From IMG/VR virus record IMGVR_UViG_3300013132_000031, positions 44,086 through 108,085 of that record: DNA of 64,000 bases. One strand, given 5' to 3'. Position 1 is the first letter of the stretch. Each line of letters begins with the position of its first letter. Shown here piece after piece: positions 23,374-46,256 of this stretch. The DNA is from a virus. Both the position numbers and the translations under genes were made by a program. The notes under the pieces were generated by a model, which saw only the letters and a list, made by a program, of their open reading frames with translations, had not been told where the DNA came from and searched no databases.

Positions 23374-24156
23374 TTAGGAAGTGACGTTATCAACAATAGC
23401 TAGATCCAGCAAGTTTTGTTGACCTGTTGATACACTGCCAGTGTTGGCAGAGCCTGTGGTTCCTGACTTGATCACTGTGCCTTCGTCAGTGAAGAAGTTG
23501 GTCACATATCGTTTGTCCGCAATCACTGAAGTGGCTGCATAGGTTGACCCGCCGGTCCAGTCCAACAAGAACTTGTTGGTCAGCTTGCTGACGGTGGTAG
23601 CGGTACTATCACCTGTGGTAAATGTGATGGCCATGAGTCCAGCAGCAGGTGTCACATCGTCATCCAGCACACACACGCCCACGCTGTTGGCTGTTCCTGA
23701 GCCTGCACCGCCCACTGAAGTGGCTGTGAATATGGTGCCCACACCAAAGTTGGCAGGTGCACCTGCGGCTGTCCAAGCCGTGGTACCCACAGATGTTATT
23801 TGATAGGCCTGACCTACCACAAATGAACCATCGTTAACACCAGTGACGTCACCTACCAAGTACTTGTGACTGCCTTTTTGGCGGATGATATAGCCCTGTG
23901 CCACACCAATGCCTGAACCATCAGGTGCAGCAATGTTGACTGTGACATCAACTCTGGGATTGGTTGCAGAAGGTGCATCAGTGGGTGCTGCACCGCCTAC
24001 CACACCCAGATATTCAGTGGTGTTGAGTGTGTTGGTAGTGTTGACTACTGGTGCTGTGAGTGACCCAAAGTTGGGAAAACCCAGATCCACGCTAACGCTG
24101 GCGCCACCGTTGCCTGATCCGGTTGAAGTTTTTTGTATTTTTAGAGGACGTCCCAT
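23374..24156 (-). CDS. Virion structural protein (unassigned)
   Basis: MGRPLK N-terminus, GYIIRQKGSHKYLV; strong SD, late promoter, own terminator. Confidence 0.65.
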   Translation of the reverse strand: MGRPLKIQKTSTGSGNGGASVSVDLGFPNFGSLTAPVVNTTNTLNTTEYLGVVGGAAPTDAPSATNPRVDVTVNIAAPDGSGIGVAQGYIIRQKGSHKYLVGDVTGVNDGSFVVGQAYQITSVGTTAWTAAGAPANFGVGTIFTATSVGGAGSGTANSVGVCVLDDDVTPAAGLMAITFTTGDSTATTVSKLTNKFLLDWTGGSTYAATSVIADKRYVTNFFTDEGTVIKSGTTGSANTGSVSTGQQNLLDLAIVDNVTS

Positions 24157-24163
24157 TTTGTTT

Positions 24164-24249
24164 CTCCTTAAAGAAGTCCGATCGGAGTTCTAGTCCGTAC
24201 GCGGTGGGTAGAACCGCATAAAACGCAGAATTGCGTTGACAAGTATTTA
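24164..24249 (-). ncRNA. Candidate structured 5' leader RNA (three hairpins, loop-loop pairing)
   Basis: Stems AACGCA/UGCGUU, UAUGCGG/CCGCGUA, CGGA/UCCG; loops UUCUA and UAGAA are complementary. Confidence 0.6.
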
Positions 24250-27688: not shown

Positions 27689-28447
27689 TTATTGTTTTTG
27701 GCTGCAGGCATCACCGTGTCTGTAGAACCAACCTTGAGCAATATCTCTGTTGCAGTGCGGGCAGTAGAGTTTTTGACGCTTTTGCCCAGTTTGTGACGCT
27801 ACACGTCGAGCCAACACTTCAGGGTCAACTTTACGACCCTTCATTTTTTCACTGAGTTTTTGTTTTTGTTCTTCAGTCATGGGCACGCCTTTGTTGGAGG
27901 GCACCTTACCTTTGTTCGCTGCACCAATCTTGGCTGCTCGTTCTGGTGTACATCCTTTGCCGTACATTCCATTTCCAGCGCCAGATTTAAGCAACGACAT
28001 TTGTTTCCTATATTCGTCACTTTGGTACACTGTAGATTTTTTAGGTTTCCCTTTTTGTGCATCTCTAATTTTTTGTTTATGCTCGTCGCTTTTAGGTTTA
28101 TCTTTGTGGTAATCACTAATCTTCTTACGACTTTCTTCAGTAGGCAGAATATAACCTGCAATATTGCCATTAAACCATTTTTTGCTTTCTAACACCTTGC
28201 ATCTTTTCAACACACGGGTTTCCCAATCAGTGGCTTGTTCTGCTGTTGCAAAAGTTTTTCGTACTTCCCACTCAAATGCTTCTAGCCCGTATTTTGCAAT
28301 AAGATCATTTATATCTTTGCTACTAGTAAAATATTTGATCATTAGATCATCTTGTGGACTTATTCCAAGACGAACATTTTTAAATCTTGACCCGTAATAA
28401 CATTGGCCAGTTGGTTTAAACTTGATTAGATATGTGTAAGGTTGCAT
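27689..28447 (-). CDS. Seg-like GIY-YIG homing endonuclease with NUMOD3 repeats
   Basis: YTYLI...YYGSR, YFTSS, repeated (T/S)EE.K.KIS, GNGMYGK, PSNKG, C-terminal CPHC; AT-richer than flanks. Confidence 0.85.
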   Translation of the reverse strand: MQPYTYLIKFKPTGQCYYGSRFKNVRLGISPQDDLMIKYFTSSKDINDLIAKYGLEAFEWEVRKTFATAEQATDWETRVLKRCKVLESKKWFNGNIAGYILPTEESRKKISDYHKDKPKSDEHKQKIRDAQKGKPKKSTVYQSDEYRKQMSLLKSGAGNGMYGKGCTPERAAKIGAANKGKVPSNKGVPMTEEQKQKLSEKMKGRKVDPEVLARRVASQTGQKRQKLYCPHCNRDIAQGWFYRHGDACSQKQ

Positions 28448-40661: not shown

Positions 40662-40685
40662 TTGTATACTGTAAAAAGAGCTTGT

Positions 40686-41723
40686 ATGAATCAAAAAATA
40701 TGTGTTACTAGTTGGCGCAGCATGGGATGCACGTTTATTGACTGGAGTATTCATTTTTTATCTGGACAAACTAGATATTACAATGCCAGTGCAAATGATT
40801 TTATAGAGTTAAGCCAAAATCCAATCAACAACATAAACGCCCACGGGCACAATAAAAATCATCCACTGGGATATGCTGAAACAAAAAAATGTTTGGAAAT
40901 TTTTGACAATCTAACAGACCAGGCCATTTGTTCAATGTATGCTGCCTGGTTGCCGCTTGATAGTGGCGCCAATATTATCAACGTTGGTATTGAACAACTG
41001 CCTGAGTCCAATATGATGACACAAGTTCAACAAACCATTGCTGACGACTACAACAAGATCTTTGAACTATGTTATAAAACTAATACAAAGATAATATATG
41101 TTGCACCAGATGATAGAATGCACCTTTATCATCAATCCATTAGATCTCACAGTAGATTCATGACCAGGCCAGACCAACCAAATTCACCTAAAGAACTCAG
41201 TGATGAAATGCAGCAAGTGTTCTTTCAAAACAGTTTATCTCGTTGGCAAGATTTAAATTTAACCAACGTTTGGGACATCAGAGAACGCATGGCATTGGAT
41301 AGCAGGCCATTTGCTGCCCACAAAAGTGACACCAAAATCCTATATCCCCATCATTGGGTAAGTTGTTTGAGTTTGTGGACCCGAACAGAAGAATCTATAG
41401 CAAACATTTTAAAATATCTTGACTTAGAAATTGATGCCAAAAGATTAGAACAATGGTTGCCTATCTGCAGACAATGGCAAAAAATGCAAACAGACATACT
41501 TGAGTTTTGTTACAATCAGCCACACATTGTTGATGCTATTGTTAATAATTTGGATTTCAGTATTGACCTAACATTTGATCAAGAAGTTATAATTCAGCAT
41601 TGCTTGATTTATCAACATGGACTGAATCTAAAAACTTGGCAATTAAAAAAATTCCCATCAAACACACAGGAACTACACAAATTGTTAGAGCCTAACATAC
41701 ACCCAGTTCCGGTGATTTATTAA
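40686..41723 (+). CDS. Hypothetical protein, possibly P-loop/sulfotransferase-like; paralog of 47263..48153
   Basis: GCTFIDWSI, N.NAH.H, HP, C-terminal QE..IQ..L...FPSNT.ELHKLL. Confidence 0.5.
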   Translation: MNQKICVTSWRSMGCTFIDWSIHFLSGQTRYYNASANDFIELSQNPINNINAHGHNKNHPLGYAETKKCLEIFDNLTDQAICSMYAAWLPLDSGANIINVGIEQLPESNMMTQVQQTIADDYNKIFELCYKTNTKIIYVAPDDRMHLYHQSIRSHSRFMTRPDQPNSPKELSDEMQQVFFQNSLSRWQDLNLTNVWDIRERMALDSRPFAAHKSDTKILYPHHWVSCLSLWTRTEESIANILKYLDLEIDAKRLEQWLPICRQWQKMQTDILEFCYNQPHIVDAIVNNLDFSIDLTFDQEVIIQHCLIYQHGLNLKTWQLKKFPSNTQELHKLLEPNIHPVPVIY

Positions 41724-42180
41724 AGATCTCTAAGAGATCTGTTGATTTCGCTGTGCTCATCAACGTATTGTTTTTTCTAGCGCGAAGCGACCAAGTATTC
41801 ATGTAGATTGTTTTAGTCAGACGGAACCGTTTTGCGCGGTTCCATCTGTGTCTTCATGTGAGTTGAATCAGCCAAGACATTGGAAGTAGGTAATTTTTTA
41901 TACACCGTATGCTAAAGGACTCTGTGCTTTTCCTTCCTACCACGATACGCTAGTGCGCTCTAAACCTCGTTCCTAGTGTTTAGATGTTTATAGCCGGTGT
42001 CTTCGTATGCTAACATTCATACTATATCAATGCGTTGGCCCTATTGTTCTAGCCTCAAACTCGCTTCCCCTTCAGGATAGTGGGATTTACCCACGGGAGT
42101 GCATCAATATGTCACGTGTCCGGTTTATTCCCCGGTTTTTCCACAGCGGTATTGCAAACTGGCCCGCCAACCTTGGGTGT
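41724..42180 (-). ncRNA. Candidate large structured non-coding RNA of unassigned class
   Basis: Largest ORF-free gap in the window; many helices with G-U pairs only on the minus strand; possible pseudoknot. Confidence 0.7.
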
Positions 42181-42618
42181 TAGTTGATTTGTAATTTTAT
42201 CTTTGATGTGTGAGCCATGCACACGTACTTGTATATGGCCGTTGTAATAATCTGTTGATTCCAATACTCGCCTTGCAAATTGTTCTCTTGCCTCAATGTA
42301 ACTGCATTCAGACTTGCTTTTGCAATAGTAAAGTATTTCTCTGGAGAAGTTTTTGGTGCCTAAAGTGATTACGTCTGCGGTTAATTCTGGGCTTGACCCG
42401 TAGTACTCACGCCAGTCTGAATCGACTTTGGTTCGTATCTTTTTCCGCTTTTTGATGCCGTTCTTTTGTTTTACTGTCTTGTACGTTGTTTTTGAAAATT
42501 TCGCTAATTTTTTGCCTATGTACCGGCGTCCAGTGAGATTATTTGTGATCTGATAAACAAATCCCACACATTCTTCGGGCAGTGTCTCAACTGGGGTGTC
42601 TTGATAAAGCCATGTCAT
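42112..42618 (-). CDS. Short GIY-YIG nuclease (catalytic domain only)
   Basis: GFVYQITN..TGRRYIGKK, DWREYYGSS, FSREIL, E..EQF, YYN. Confidence 0.88.
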   Translation of the reverse strand: MTWLYQDTPVETLPEECVGFVYQITNNLTGRRYIGKKLAKFSKTTYKTVKQKNGIKKRKKIRTKVDSDWREYYGSSPELTADVITLGTKNFSREILYYCKSKSECSYIEAREQFARRVLESTDYYNGHIQVRVHGSHIKDKITNQLTPKVGGPVCNTAVEKPGNKPDT

Positions 42619-42681
42619 GTGAGTTTTGAGAAATTGCCTTTCGTGCTATAGTTATGCCTTTGAGAGTGATTATATAGAATT

Positions 42682-44763
42682 TTATGCTAGATCAATATCT
42701 GTGCTGTAACTGGTAAATCCGTTTTCTTTTACTACCCGGAGTATGTTCTCCACACGCCCGGCTAATTCGTCTCTATGGCTCACAAGCCAAATGCTCTTGT
42801 GACGCTCACGAGTCATCTTCTTCAACAGCGCCAAACTGGCTTCTACACCTTGCGTGTCTAGTCCAGAGTCAATCATCTCATCAATAAACAAGATGTTGAT
42901 GGGGTGATACAAACTTTCCCATACATCACGGAATGCCCAACTCATGCTAAGGATCAATCGATTACGCTCACCACGACTCAAGTTGTCAAAGTCAAGTTCT
43001 CGACCCAGTTCCTCAATGCTCACACTCAAGTCGTTTTGAAACTTCACTGTGTGCGGCAATCCAATGCGATCCAAATAGTGTGTGAGTCGGGCATTCAAGT
43101 AACTTAGATTCTGATCAATAATTTTTTTACGAACAAAACTATCTTTGCTGGTCAACAGTTTGAGCAAGAACTCTTGATGGTCTTGCACTTTGGTCAGTTC
43201 GTTAATTTTATTGTAGTCAACCACTTGCAAGGCCTGTTGTTGCATGTCCTCAATCTGTTCGCTGTAGGGATCAGTTTCGGCATGCTTGCTGGTGATATGT
43301 TGTAGCAAGTTATTGACTTGTGTGGAGTGTTTGATGGCCTGTGCTTCTGTGTCGTAGTGTGTGACAGGAGGAGCACCCAATTCCACAGGCACATAACCTG
43401 CAAGTTGTTCAGCATAAGGATCTGCTTCTGCTGACTTGTCTGCAATCTTTTGCTGTAAATTTTCCACCTCACTGCTGTGGCGAATGGCTTCTGCTTCGGT
43501 CTTGTAGTATGTTGTGGACCGAGCGCCCAGTTCGCCCAATGCTCGAAGTGCATCAGTATTTTCCATCCATTGACCATTGGTGGCCAAGGCTTGTAGTGCA
43601 GACTCCTGCAGTGCTTTACGCTTGGTTTCCAGCACAGTTTCGTGGGCACCGTCATGAAACTCTTGACCACAAGCATAACACTTGTGTGCTTCTAGTTCAG
43701 CAATCTCTGCCCGGAGTTTATCTGAAGTCTTTTGTTCTCGTGCTTCATCTGACACACAACGAGCAATGAGTTTTTCAAGTTCAGCAATGTCCTTGGCCCG
43801 TTGATTGTATGCGGCCAAGTCTTGGTGTGCTTGTAGTTCTGCTGAGATATTAATGTGACTGAGTTTGGTGTAACTGTCTTGCAATGCAGCAACTTCTTTG
43901 GCCTGTGTTTGTTGCCAAGCGGTTTGATATGCCAGCAGTCGATCATGTGCATCTGCTTGTTTTTTACGTTCGTTCCACAAGGCAAGTTCTTTGTGAGCCA
44001 ACAACTCTACTTCAATGTTGACTCGTGTCAAGTCATCGTATTGCCCCACAAGATACGCCAAGTCGCTGTCGTATTTCTTTTGCCACAGCCCCTGTCTACG
44101 GCACAGGCTTTCAATTTGTTCTTCAATGCGCTTGTTGGCTTCTTGAACAGCCCGCACCCTAAACTCTTCTGAGGTAATAGCGTCCTTGGTGGCCTTGTTG
44201 AGTTCTTTGATACGATCAGCACGTTCACTCAATACTGTAATACCCAACAACTGCTCAATGATGGTTCGCTGTTCGTTGGCTTTCAAACTTAAGAATGGTT
44301 CGGTATATGTGTTCAGCGCCAAGATGTGCTTGAACATGTCATGACTCATGCCAAACACACGCTCAATGGCATCCTGTGTTTCACGGCTGTCACCCTGTGC
44401 ATCGTCTGTGGCAGTTTGTTCTTCACTGTCCACATAGAAACGTAGGACATTGGGTTTGCGTCCACGTTCAATCTTGTATGTTTTACCGTTGACGGCAAAG
44501 TCCAAGCTGACCAACATGCCCTTGCCATTGGTTTTGTTTACTAGATTGTCCTTGCGAATGTTGCTGAGTGCTTGTCCATACATGGCATAACTCAGGGCAT
44601 TGATGATTGTGGTCTTGCCTGTGCCATTGCGTGATCCGTCACCACCCAGGTCCAAATTCTCACCTAACACCAGCGTAAGGTCTTGACGATCAAAGTCAAT
44701 GCCTTGCGTGGCCGCACCCACACTCATGAAGTTCTTAACAGTGAGATTTTTAATTTGAATCAT
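42682..44763 (-). CDS. gp46: Recombination ATPase gp46 (Rad50/SbcC-like)
   Basis: Walker A NGTGKTT, zinc hook CYAC, signature LSRGE, Walker B LFIDE, SH. Confidence 0.95.
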   Translation of the reverse strand: MIQIKNLTVKNFMSVGAATQGIDFDRQDLTLVLGENLDLGGDGSRNGTGKTTIINALSYAMYGQALSNIRKDNLVNKTNGKGMLVSLDFAVNGKTYKIERGRKPNVLRFYVDSEEQTATDDAQGDSRETQDAIERVFGMSHDMFKHILALNTYTEPFLSLKANEQRTIIEQLLGITVLSERADRIKELNKATKDAITSEEFRVRAVQEANKRIEEQIESLCRRQGLWQKKYDSDLAYLVGQYDDLTRVNIEVELLAHKELALWNERKKQADAHDRLLAYQTAWQQTQAKEVAALQDSYTKLSHINISAELQAHQDLAAYNQRAKDIAELEKLIARCVSDEAREQKTSDKLRAEIAELEAHKCYACGQEFHDGAHETVLETKRKALQESALQALATNGQWMENTDALRALGELGARSTTYYKTEAEAIRHSSEVENLQQKIADKSAEADPYAEQLAGYVPVELGAPPVTHYDTEAQAIKHSTQVNNLLQHITSKHAETDPYSEQIEDMQQQALQVVDYNKINELTKVQDHQEFLLKLLTSKDSFVRKKIIDQNLSYLNARLTHYLDRIGLPHTVKFQNDLSVSIEELGRELDFDNLSRGERNRLILSMSWAFRDVWESLYHPINILFIDEMIDSGLDTQGVEASLALLKKMTRERHKSIWLVSHRDELAGRVENILRVVKENGFTSYSTDIDLA

Positions 44764-46256
44764 ATATTGCTATTATACACATAGCCCATGGCTTTTGCAA
44801 TCTCAGGATGAGAATCCGCAAAATTTTGATTTCTTAAAGAATCAAAGTGCTTGCATAGTTTTATAAATTCTTGCCCATCTGAATCAGGACCTGATAAGAT
44901 ATAGTTTAAGATATTTTTCATTTCGGGCCAAACGCGATGTTGAAATTTTTCTGTGATCAACTTTTTAGCCTCAGCAGTGAGATTTTTAAGATCAAACCCA
45001 GCTGGTTCAGTAACATACCCCACATTTATTGCAAGTCCTAAATCATTAGCCCATTGTACTATTTCGTCTAGGTATAAAACATTCATTATGCTGATTGCGG
45101 GCATAACACTTATTTTGATATTGGGCAAGTTAAGAGCAATTAACTTTTTGATGTTTGAATCAACTTGCTGCCAACTACCACCTCGTTCAAGTTCAAACCG
45201 ATCACCGATGTTGTCGATGCTGAATTGTATGTCCACATGATTGAAATGTTTCCAGTATTCAATCAATGTTTCAGGATACACAGATCCATTGCTGTTATAG
45301 TGTAACCGAATTTGTGAGGCATGTCCTTGTTCTACTGCTTGTTGAATTATGTGCAGCAAAGATTTCAGCAAAAACGGTTCACCGCCGTACATGTCTATGT
45401 TAGTTAAATTTGGCAATAATTTTACAATTTCATCTACAATTTCGAGATTAGATTCTGGCCAATTAAAACTTTCTATAGAAATAAATTTAGATGCTTTTAC
45501 TTCTTGTGCAAACAAGGAACTGCCCAGCGGATTACAAATGCGGCATTTAAAATTGCAAGTATTTCCCGGTTTAATATCTAAACTTTTAATAGTGGGACTA
45601 TCCAAATCAACTGTCAGCAGTTCTTTTTGCAACATACGCATGTGATAATATCGGCTGCTGGTCAACCCTTTTTCTTCGCTGGCCCAACAATTGTTGCATC
45701 CACTGGGTTTTTTACCATCAAGCAATTGTTGACGTAGATCTTGAATACTATGATTGTTAAATGTGTGTTGCAATGAATTTTTTTTGACATGACCAACACT
45801 GTGTTGGTACACACAGCATGGACGAATCTCTCCAGACGGTGAAACTTCTAAGTGTCTCCAAGGCAGCGGACACAGTGTATTTGGGACAAAAAAGTTGTTT
45901 TTTATAGGCTCAGTAGTTTCAATTTCCACTTGCAGTGTTTGAAATGTGTTTGTGTGGTTTAATTTTGCAAAGTGTTTTGTTTGTTGATCAATATCATATG
46001 GACTGCAAATTAACACAAAATAATTTGATATATCAATCAAATCAGTAGCCTGATACAGATGTTGTAGCAAACTAACTGGTATAATTTTTGAAGTATAAAA
46101 AACCAGTCGATCGTTATTACTAAATTTTTCCTGATGGCAACGATCAAAATGTTTGTATGCATGAGTTGGAGAAGTAGACAGTTCGGCCAAGTCAACAAAA
46201 CATTTTACATCATAAAGATTTTGCAGGCTTTTTTCTAAATGATCTATTGACATCAT
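44760..46256 (-). CDS. Radical SAM protein with N-terminal SPASM/twitch-like Cys domain
   Basis: CPLPW...RPCC...CNNC, then CNFKCRIC, YGGEP, YNSNG, SIDN. Confidence 0.9.
   Translation of the reverse strand: MMSIDHLEKSLQNLYDVKCFVDLAELSTSPTHAYKHFDRCHQEKFSNNDRLVFYTSKIIPVSLLQHLYQATDLIDISNYFVLICSPYDIDQQTKHFAKLNHTNTFQTLQVEIETTEPIKNNFFVPNTLCPLPWRHLEVSPSGEIRPCCVYQHSVGHVKKNSLQHTFNNHSIQDLRQQLLDGKKPSGCNNCWASEEKGLTSSRYYHMRMLQKELLTVDLDSPTIKSLDIKPGNTCNFKCRICNPLGSSLFAQEVKASKFISIESFNWPESNLEIVDEIVKLLPNLTNIDMYGGEPFLLKSLLHIIQQAVEQGHASQIRLHYNSNGSVYPETLIEYWKHFNHVDIQFSIDNIGDRFELERGGSWQQVDSNIKKLIALNLPNIKISVMPAISIMNVLYLDEIVQWANDLGLAINVGYVTEPAGFDLKNLTAEAKKLITEKFQHRVWPEMKNILNYILSGPDSDGQEFIKLCKHFDSLRNQNFADSHPEIAKAMGYVYNSNI

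What the first reader, a model, noticed from the sequence alone, without database searches (positions are those of the whole stretch)
41724..42618. Large structured RNA overlapping the 3' end of a nuclease-only GIY-YIG gene: candidate RNA-protein system
Seen: the only ~390-bp ORF-free gap in a densely packed window is full of helices on the minus strand. These include AUAUUGAUGC (42110-42101)/GCAUUGAUAU (42033-42024), a 12-bp hairpin at 41848-41818, UCUAAAC/GUUUAGA (41984-41959), GUGGG/CCCAC (42094-42080), and a possible closing helix CCAAGG (42176-42171)/UCUUGG (41877-41872). ACACCG/CGGUGU and GUAGG/CCUAC cross, suggesting a pseudoknot. G-U wobbles work only on the minus strand, the strand of the GIY-YIG gene. 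A 10-nt direct repeat (CGTATGCTAA) lies at 41906 and 42004. The protein lacks the NUMOD DNA-binding tail seen in 27689..28447, has a very basic insertion (KTVKQKNGIKKRKKIRTK), and its last ~25 codons run into the RNA. Known: large phage ncRNAs (GOLLD, ROOL) and nuclease-plus-RNA systems (HEARO/IscB, TnpB with 3'-overlapping RNA) exist. Inference: this is an unclassified large ncRNA or ribozyme, possibly the partner or guide of the nuclease. Short GIY-YIG proteins are common in T4-like phages, so the adjacency could be coincidental.
Basis: partly seen in the sequence, partly recalled or inferred. Interest (0 to 1): 0.88.

Follow-up and report, generated by a model that had tools for sequence, protein, structure and literature searches.

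The report
Twin-box phage RNA behind small nuclease
The gene-free stretch behind a small nuclease gene of this uncultured freshwater T4-like giant phage encodes a real, roughly 465-base folded non-coding RNA. It is an uncatalogued variant of a family known only in part since 2010 (Polynucleobacter-1 motif), and its function and its tie to the nuclease remain unshown.

Summary
Window 41718-42183 (minus strand) is a structured RNA. On 13 close copies, 74 curated pairs are 97.9% paired against 91.7% in shuffles (0/500). On 44 diverse copies, 29 of 55 pairs change on both sides. G-U outnumbers A-C 284 to 37, so the RNA lies on the nuclease strand.

Rfam has no match for this copy. The RNA is modular. 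A shared 3' domain of about 160 nt carries the same short word twice ("twin boxes"), then a GA-hairpin and a terminator. The 5' head is exchangeable: type A (here), B or C. Head C is Rfam RF01718, Polynucleobacter-1, which Weinberg 2010 reported downstream of PSSM2_218-like genes. That gene family is this GIY-YIG family.

A search with the 3' domain alone gave 100 usable viral loci. In 95 a GIY-YIG gene lies upstream, and the other 5 carry an unrelated PD-(D/E)XK nuclease instead. The two nucleases never occur together.

Against a specific RNA-protein partnership:
- RNA heads and box words reassort freely against near-identical proteins.
- There is no guide-like segment.
- Cultured-phage homologues of the protein lack the RNA.
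- The 26-codon overlap is peculiar to this window, where the stop codon was lost.

The scan has noted this family before, in at least 75 other genomes. Verdict: real RNA, a new variant of a known orphan kind, function unknown.

The parts
41718..42183 (-). Whole structured RNA (about 466 nt), 'type A head' variant of the twin-box / extended Polynucleobacter-1 family
   Evidence: The conserved block shared with 18 related viral loci starts at about 42183 and ends after the terminator. Covariation is shown. No ORF is present and all frames contain stops.
41864..42183 (-). 5' head, type A (exchangeable module; no Rfam match)
   Evidence: Found in 59 distinct related sequences, while types B and C occupy the same place in other loci. 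Helices are supported by double changes. cmscan is negative.
41852..41863 (-). Twin box 1 (ACUC-AC-AUGAAG)
   Evidence: The pattern is shared by all head types. The variable dinucleotide is identical in both boxes in about 116 distinct contexts, in four states.
41819..41847 (-).
   Evidence: 90-100% canonical with one-sided and two-sided changes. The stem sequence is replaced in types B and C but the hairpin is kept.
41799..41808 (-). Twin box 2 (AUCU-AC-AUGA)
41741..41764 (-). Conserved hairpin with tandem G-A internal loop (GUUGAU-GAGC..GCGAA-AUCAAC)
   Evidence: 4 of 6 stem pairs change on both sides in A1. It is present in all head types.
41724..41740 (-). Terminator-like hairpin; palindromic, abuts the stop codon of the convergent gene 40662..41723, so probably serves both directions
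   Evidence: 3 pairs change on both sides. The scan calls it on the + strand. The function of the T-rich tail on the - strand is inferred.
42193..42618 (-). GIY-YIG-only nuclease gene, conserved 142-codon core
   Evidence: Pfam SegE_GIY-YIG, 3.7e-32; phrog_447. The AF2 model has pLDDT 90 and its best fold match is the I-TevI catalytic domain, Z 8.6. It is single copy in complete 345-kb genomes.
42112..42192 (-). 26-codon read-through extension into the RNA, specific to this window (stop codon lost)
   Evidence: Homologues are 142-144 aa. L003 keeps the stop at this place.
42669..42674 (-). TATAAT at the 5' edge of the conserved cassette (possible -10 of a nuclease-RNA transcription unit)
   Evidence: Similarity to related loci begins here. 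TTGATC lies 15 nt upstream. The promoter scan does not call it, so this is inference only.

Best explanation
This is a genuine non-coding RNA of about 466 nt with many helices. It is transcribed on the minus strand as the tail of the small-nuclease transcription unit, at the end of the gp55-gp47-gp46 gene row, and is stopped by the hairpin at 41724-41740.

It is an uncatalogued 'type A head' member of a modular phage RNA family. The family has a constant 3' domain: twin boxes around a hairpin, a GA-hairpin and a terminator. To this is joined one of at least three exchangeable 5' heads, and head C is the Rfam Polynucleobacter-1 motif.

Most likely it acts as a stable, free-standing folded RNA. 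Its twin-box domain would be read by a factor not yet identified. The upstream nuclease would be a constant operon neighbour rather than a sequence-specific partner.

Shown: the structure, the strand, family membership, the linkage statistics, and presence in RNA libraries. Inferred: co-transcription, stability, action in trans, and the existence of a reader.
For: Structure and strand.

Modular family: nhmmer with the type-A profile hits the last ~155 nt of the type B and C RNAs (E down to 1e-16). There are three head clusters. RF01718 hits the first ~140 nt of all 10 type C loci tested and of the L130 group, and none of types A or B.

Same slot and same strand: the RNA begins within ~25 nt of the nuclease stop codon, there is no sigma-70-like promoter in between, and one terminator follows.

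Expression: metatranscriptome contigs from three studies cover the RNA, and one bridges the ORF end and the RNA.

Independence from the protein: protein pairs at >=93% identity carry different box words about as often as the same (136 against 160). No protein column covaries with the word. Identical heads occur behind GIY-YIG and behind PD-(D/E)XK genes. Extra genes can sit between nuclease and RNA. Homologues of the protein in cultured phages have no such RNA.

A reader is suggested by identity covariation. The box dinucleotide is the same in both boxes in all ~116 contexts (AC, AG, GG, GC). Within types B and C it correlates with nothing else in the RNA.
Against: Every one of the 100 RNA loci with enough upstream sequence has a small nuclease gene upstream. 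GIY-YIG accounts for 95 (94 close upstream on the same strand, plus L104 at 3 kb on the opposite strand) and PDDEXK_15 for 5, and the two are mutually exclusive. All 56 protein-derived loci with enough downstream sequence have the RNA. That is tighter than simple synteny would predict and points to some functional tie.

No transcript ends, abundance or processing could be measured, because only contigs were available. No reader was found.
Confidence: 0.5

Rival explanations
1. Two-part system. The RNA and the small nuclease work together: the RNA regulates, scaffolds or directs the nuclease. The nuclease is a swappable effector, GIY-YIG in most phages and PD-(D/E)XK in a few.
For: 100 of 100 RNA loci have one of two unrelated small nucleases upstream, never both. 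56 of 56 protein loci have the RNA. They lie on the same strand with no promoter between them. The nuclease has no DNA-binding domain, but it has a basic beta-hairpin insertion.
Against: No guide-like variable end exists. RNA heads and box words do not covary with the protein. The same RNA heads sit behind two unrelated folds, which is hard to reconcile with a specific binding interface. The protein family (phrog_447, PSSM2_218) is widespread in cultured phages without the RNA. Other genes can be inserted between the two.
Confidence: 0.22
2. Homing-nuclease hot spot. The GIY-YIG and PD-(D/E)XK genes are free-standing homing-type endonucleases parked beside a conserved RNA gene. The breaks they make drive local gene conversion, which would explain the mosaic RNA heads and words.
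For: The Pfam family is SegE_GIY-YIG. The best fold match is I-TevI. Two unrelated nuclease families use the same slot. Neighbouring RNA modules reassort strongly against near-identical nuclease genes. Small inserted ORFs occur in the slot.
Against: The distribution is not sporadic. The gene is single copy and present in every related genome examined. Catalytic motifs are conserved from 36 to 98% identity. There is no DNA-binding domain. No empty site without a nuclease was found.
Confidence: 0.15
3. Cis-acting 3' UTR. The folded tail only stabilises or controls translation of the nuclease mRNA.
For: The position directly behind the stop codon and in front of the terminator. A bridging RNA contig.
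Against: About 460 nt with long invariant unpaired stretches and exchangeable heads is far more than a stabiliser needs. The RNA is kept behind unrelated genes: a 335-aa ORF in L088, and PD-(D/E)XK genes. The resemblance of box 1 to the nuclease start region is a coincidence of this window.
Confidence: 0.1
4. Not an RNA. The stretch is a decayed C-terminal domain of the nuclease, or a DNA-level element.
For: The ORF runs into it in this window.
Against: All frames are full of stops. Homologues are all about 142 aa. Indels are not in threes, and helices change on both sides with a G-U bias on one strand.
Confidence: 0.02

Closest known systems
Polynucleobacter-1 RNA motif (Rfam RF01718; Weinberg et al. 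2010, Genome Biol 11:R31, PMC2864571)
   Same: Same genomic slot, directly downstream of the PSSM2_218-like small GIY-YIG gene. The RNAs that carry RF01718 continue into a 3' domain homologous to that of the window's RNA. Freshwater origin. Function unknown.
   Different: RF01718 models only ~141 nt, the 5' head of type C. The window's head (type A) does not match it even at E<=10. The twin-box 3' domain is not in Rfam.
Large ornate bacterial and phage RNAs (ROOL, GOLLD, OLE)
   Same: Large, complex, phage-associated RNAs without known function, with much conserved unpaired sequence.
   Different: No Rfam match to any of them. Smaller. Tied to a nuclease gene, not to tRNA clusters. Oligomerisation was not tested.
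OMEGA systems (IscB with HEARO/omega RNA; TnpB with 3'-overlapping omega RNA)
   Same: A small nuclease gene with a large structured RNA directly at its 3' end.
   Different: The nuclease fold is GIY-YIG or PD-(D/E)XK, not RuvC/HNH. There is no variable guide at either RNA end, no transposon ends, and one copy per genome.
T4 Seg free-standing GIY-YIG homing endonucleases (e.g. SegB inside the tRNA gene cluster)
   Same: GIY-YIG catalytic domain of the SegE Pfam family, lying next to structured-RNA genes. A second nuclease family can occupy the slot.
   Different: No DNA-binding tail. Not sporadic. Conserved as a single-copy gene.
T4 endonuclease II (DenA) with gp46/gp47 host-DNA breakdown (own knowledge of T4 biology)
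   Same: A ~140-aa GIY-YIG-only enzyme; here it is encoded right behind gp47 and gp46. The fold match to 2WSH has Z 5.5.
   Different: Closer in fold to I-TevI (Z 8.6). No sequence match to solved structures. T4 has no RNA of this kind there.

Membership tests
Rfam RF01718 Polynucleobacter-1 | Covariance-model score at or above the gathering score (37 bits) | tested here: not met
   No match in the window at gathering score or at E<=10 over 41500-42800. The positive controls L010, L012, L062 and others score 94-121 bits.
Rfam RF01718 Polynucleobacter-1 | Lies downstream of a GOS11034 / PSSM2_218-like gene | tested here: met
   Weinberg 2010 supplement. PSSM2_218 is 36% identical to the window's protein, E 5e-20.
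Extended twin-box RNA family (RF01718-bearing RNAs plus heads A and B) | Homologous 3' domain: two boxes with the same word, a hairpin and UGAC between them, a GA-hairpin, and a terminator | tested here: met
   nhmmer with the type-A profile hits type B and C RNAs over profile positions ~322-480. The pattern is found in more than 120 viral loci.
OMEGA-type guide RNA | A variable guide segment at an RNA end, matching flanking or target DNA | tested here: not met
   The 5' end is conserved from its first bases. The 3' end is a conserved hairpin plus terminator. The only hypervariable piece is a self-paired UUCG-type hairpin.
OMEGA-type guide RNA | RuvC-type (TnpB/IscB) nuclease | tested here: not met
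   The nuclease is a GIY-YIG domain only.
Group I intron with homing endonuclease ORF | Group I core and an interrupted host gene | tested here: not met
   No Rfam intron model matched at E<=10. The upstream gene ends with its own stop codon and the downstream gene is convergent.
Free-standing Seg-like homing endonuclease | GIY-YIG catalytic domain | tested here: met
   PF19835, 3.7e-32; I-TevI fold, Z 8.6.
Free-standing Seg-like homing endonuclease | C-terminal DNA-binding domain | tested here: not met
   142 aa, with the domain covering residues 3-129 and no NUMOD. Homologues have the same length.
Free-standing Seg-like homing endonuclease | Sporadic presence among close relatives | tested here: not met
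   One copy in each of 5 genomes. The nuclease is present at every RNA locus.
ROOL / GOLLD | Match to the Rfam models | tested here: not met

The most novel reading that the evidence does not exclude
The RNA and an interchangeable small DNA nuclease (GIY-YIG or PD-(D/E)XK) form a two-component phage system. In it the RNA controls or directs DNA cleavage, and the fast-changing twin-box word sets a specificity. This would be a new kind of RNA-nuclease system outside the RuvC/HNH world.
Probability: 0.2. Interest if true: 0.9.

Novelty: new variant of a known kind. Interest (0 to 1): 0.6.

Why it matters
An orphan Rfam motif from 2010 turns out to be one head of a ~400-470-nt modular RNA that is common in abundant freshwater giant phages. 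The family has at least three exchangeable heads. It also has a constant domain in which one short word is kept identical at two places through at least four states, an unusual identity covariation that calls for an unknown reader. Its unbroken linkage to one of two unrelated small nucleases gives a concrete, testable question about RNA-nuclease cooperation or homing in phages.

Tried and rejected
1. blastn of the region against cultured-phage records gave no match.
2. ARAGORN found no tRNA or tmRNA.
3. Decayed C-terminal domain: translations are full of stops and homologues are all short.
4. Mimicry of the start region: box 1 resembles ACUCAC-AUG-A at the nuclease start in this window, but other loci with the same start region carry other box words. 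Rejected.
5. Protein-to-word covariation: none.
6. Antiparallel pairing of the two boxes (U-A, C-G, N1-U, tandem N2.A, U-N1, G.U) fits the states AG, GG, AC and the AGCU variant of L030. It does not explain why G-to-A changes occur in both boxes. Left open.
7. K-turn, C/D-box-like and hammerhead-like readings of the GA motifs do not hold consistently across head types (by inspection).
8. A third copy or complement of the word in the phage's own 108-kb record: only chance-level hits. The freshwater-2 RNA does not carry the complement.
9. Sigma-70 promoter between nuclease and RNA: none called. The promoter-like TTGCAG-N17-TATAAT in L088 lies inside the end of an upstream ORF, so it is not evidence for an own promoter.
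10. Read laying used contigs only. It gave no ends, no levels and no strand, and uncovered parts (for example the convergent gene) mean nothing.
11. The pattern in bacterial genome collections hit only MAG contigs that are probably mis-binned phage, plus two likely chance hits. It gives no host clue.
12. Building a covariance model of the type-A head was dropped, because the seed alignment A3 exceeded 400 columns.
13. The RNAalifold structure of the 13 close copies missed the 10-bp helix that the diverse set supports.

Full report
WHERE WE ARE. The window is part of a 108-kb IMG/VR viral contig. It belongs to a group of T4-like freshwater phages whose complete genomes are about 345 kb. On the minus strand the gene row runs gp55, gp47, a radical-SAM/SPASM gene, and gp46 (SMC_N/AAA_23). 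Then comes a 168-codon GIY-YIG ORF at 42112..42618, followed by a stretch without ORFs down to 41724, where a convergent 353-aa gene ends.

THE OBSERVATION.
- The single sequence folds better than its shuffles (z = -3.1), but the real evidence is comparative.
- A protein-based scan of viral contigs returned 80 loci with a homologue of the nuclease. Eighteen of them also carry a close copy of the window's downstream element.
- RNAalifold on 13 distinct copies found 23 pairs with changes on both sides.
- I widened the set to 44 type-A copies that sit behind proteins only 50-100% identical to the window's.
- UCUAAAC/GUUUAGA, GUGGG/CCCAC, GUAGG/CCUAC and the 12-bp hairpin are likewise supported.
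- CCAAGG/UCUUGG is compatible but never changes on both sides.
- ACACCG/CGGUGU is only 56% canonical, so the proposed pseudoknot is not supported.
- Controls: 55 curated pairs are 94.1% canonical against 81.8% in shuffles (0/500), with 29 pairs changed on both sides. Slid partners give 30-45%.
- On alignment A1 the counting tool gives 97.9% against 91.7% (0/500), and a covariation score of 0.225 against 0.104 (0/500).
- G-U cells outnumber A-C cells 284 to 37, so the molecule is an RNA on the nuclease strand.

THE ORF OVERLAP IS LOCAL. Thousands of homologues are 142-144 aa long. In the 93%-identical locus L003 a stop codon stands where the window reads on. The 26 extra codons (42112-42192) are therefore a lost stop codon in this contig, not a feature of the system.

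WHAT THE RNA IS. The DNA behind the nuclease gene comes in alternative, mutually unalignable versions. All are ORF-free and 390-470 nt long. Clustering gives three main 5' heads: A (the window; 59 distinct sequences), B (31) and C (25), plus minor ones.

All versions share the last ~160 nt (nhmmer, E down to 1e-16). That shared domain consists of:
- a box ACUC-NN-AUGAWG;
- a hairpin followed by UGAC;
- a second box AUCU-NN-AUGAW;
- a variable hairpin with a UUCG-type loop;
- a conserved hairpin with a tandem G-A internal loop;
- a terminator hairpin.

Rfam has no match for the window. It does match the first ~140 nt of every type C RNA tested, and of the L130 group, to RF01718, Polynucleobacter-1, at 62-121 bits. 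Weinberg et al. 2010 described that motif as lying mostly downstream of genes of family GOS11034, with possible homology to PSSM2_218 of cyanophage P-SSM2. PSSM2_218 is a 145-aa protein misannotated as 'NAD synthetase'. It is 36% identical to the window's nuclease, E 5e-20. The gene-RNA pairing has thus been on record since 2010. What was catalogued is one head of a much larger modular RNA, and the window carries a head that is not catalogued.

THE TWIN BOXES. The dinucleotide NN is identical in the two boxes in all ~116 distinct contexts, and it occurs in four states: AC, AG, GG and GC. Rarer changes at other box positions also occur in both boxes together: AUGA to AUAA in several loci, and AGAU to AGCU in L030. 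Within types B and C the first variable base of box 1 correlates perfectly with that of box 2 and with no other column. This is identity covariation, not complementarity. An antiparallel box-box helix with a symmetric tandem mismatch explains part of it but not all. Something reads both boxes alike, or an unusual symmetric structure does. I could not tell which.

THE NUCLEASE.
- Pfam assigns SegE_GIY-YIG over residues 3-129, and PHROGs assigns phrog_447.
- The AlphaFold model (pLDDT 90) is a GIY-YIG domain in which the basic insertion forms a long beta-hairpin.
- Fold matches are the I-TevI catalytic domain (Z 8.6), the PD-T4-3 GIY-YIG restriction enzyme (7.5), the UvrC N-terminal domain (5.6) and T4 EndoII (5.5).
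- Catalytic-motif residues are invariant across 31 proteins down to 36% identity.
- The gene is single copy in each genome examined.
- The family occurs in 472 cultured-phage records, mostly cyanophages.
- In the four cultured phages I examined (Melnitz-3, P-HM2, phiM12, P-SSM2) the neighbourhood is coding and holds no twin-box RNA.

LINKAGE. I searched viral contigs with a pattern from the 3' domain alone and obtained 120 new loci.
- Of the 100 loci with at least 900 nt upstream, 94 have a GIY-YIG homologue (36-96% identical) ending mostly 190-600 nt before box 1, and in some loci 1-2 kb before it.
- Of the six exceptions, L104 has the gene 3 kb upstream on the other strand.
- The other five (L088, L125, L172, L184, L197) carry a PF24608 'PDDEXK_15' nuclease of about 170 aa in the slot instead.
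- No GIY-YIG locus has that gene.
- Complete GIY-YIG genomes lack PDDEXK_15, whereas the GIY-less 192-kb contig has it and has no GIY-YIG anywhere.
- Conversely, all 56 protein-derived loci with enough downstream sequence have the RNA.
- gp46 lies upstream in most loci of both protein clades, so the whole arrangement is a conserved slot at the end of the gp46 row.

WHAT THIS MEANS FOR THE PARTNERSHIP IDEA.
For a tie:
- the exhaustive and mutually exclusive presence of a small nuclease;
- the same strand, with no promoter in between;
- a nuclease without a DNA-binding domain.

Against a specific ribonucleoprotein or guide:
- both RNA ends are conserved, and the only hypervariable segment is a self-paired hairpin;
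- heads and box words reassort freely against nearly identical proteins (136 against 160 pairs at >=93% identity), and no residue covaries;
- the same heads sit behind two unrelated nuclease folds;
- other genes can be inserted between nuclease and RNA, namely a CxxC ORF of 67-93 aa in 13 loci, or 1-2 kb of other genes;
- the protein family does without the RNA elsewhere.

The homing-endonuclease reading explains the two nuclease families and the mosaicism. It fits poorly with a ubiquitous, single-copy, strongly conserved gene that lacks a DNA-binding tail.

I therefore rank the readings as follows:
- an independently acting RNA made as the tail of the nuclease transcript, 0.5;
- a true RNA-nuclease system, 0.22;
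- a homing hot spot, 0.15;
- a mere 3' UTR, 0.1.

EXPRESSION. Contigs from metatranscriptome libraries of three studies cover the nuclease ORF and the type-A RNA. One contig runs across the ORF end into the RNA. Contigs give no levels, ends or strand, and DNA carry-over cannot be excluded, so this shows presence only.

PREVIOUS NOTES OF THIS SCAN. I reached the above first and then looked. The scan holds 84 notes on this family in at least 75 genomes. Follow-up agents call it an 'extended Polynucleobacter-1 twin-box phage RNA' of unknown function. My results agree.
- the explicit three-head classification, with the window's head unmatched by RF01718;
- the linkage statistics;
- the lack of covariation between protein and RNA;
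- the PD-(D/E)XK replacement in every GIY-less locus;
- the finding that the ORF overlap is a local loss of the stop codon.

Noticed in passing
L088, L125, L172, L184, L197 (related viral loci): Every twin-box RNA locus that lacks the GIY-YIG gene carries a PF24608 PDDEXK_15 nuclease of about 170 aa in the same slot. The two nucleases are mutually exclusive across 100 loci and in whole genomes.
   Followed up: partly
L048:3426-3692 and 12 other loci; L125:8730-8930: A small ORF of 67-93 aa with a C-terminal CxxC motif (..KIVCN(T/S)CGGK(F/W)V.W.PKG..) sits between nuclease and RNA, overlapping the nuclease stop (ATGA). It occurs behind either nuclease type and has no Pfam or PHROG match.
   Followed up: partly
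window 24154-24238 (-): Rfam freshwater-2 RNA (RF02980, 70.6 bits), upstream of a late-looking gene.
   Followed up: no
window 41724-41740: The terminator hairpin is a perfect palindrome that abuts the stop codon of the convergent gene 40662..41723, so it probably terminates both transcription directions.
   Followed up: no
window 44760-46256 (-): A radical-SAM/SPASM gene is inserted between gp47 and gp46. Related loci have one or two such genes and an SDR-like gene in the same row.
   Followed up: no
window 40662-41723 (+): The convergent 353-aa gene is conserved next to the RNA in many related loci, but has no Pfam or PHROG match.
   Followed up: no
L205, L208, L209, L211-L213 (genome contigs): The twin-box pattern occurs on contigs of MAGs labelled Crocinitomicaceae, Haliscomenobacter and Neomarinimicrobiota (one contig is 335 kb). 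These are probably giant-phage contigs binned into bacterial MAGs.
   Followed up: no
phage records, e.g. NC_006883 PSSM2_218: The short GIY-YIG family (phrog_447) is widely annotated as 'NAD synthetase' in cyanophage records. This looks like a propagated misannotation.
   Followed up: partly
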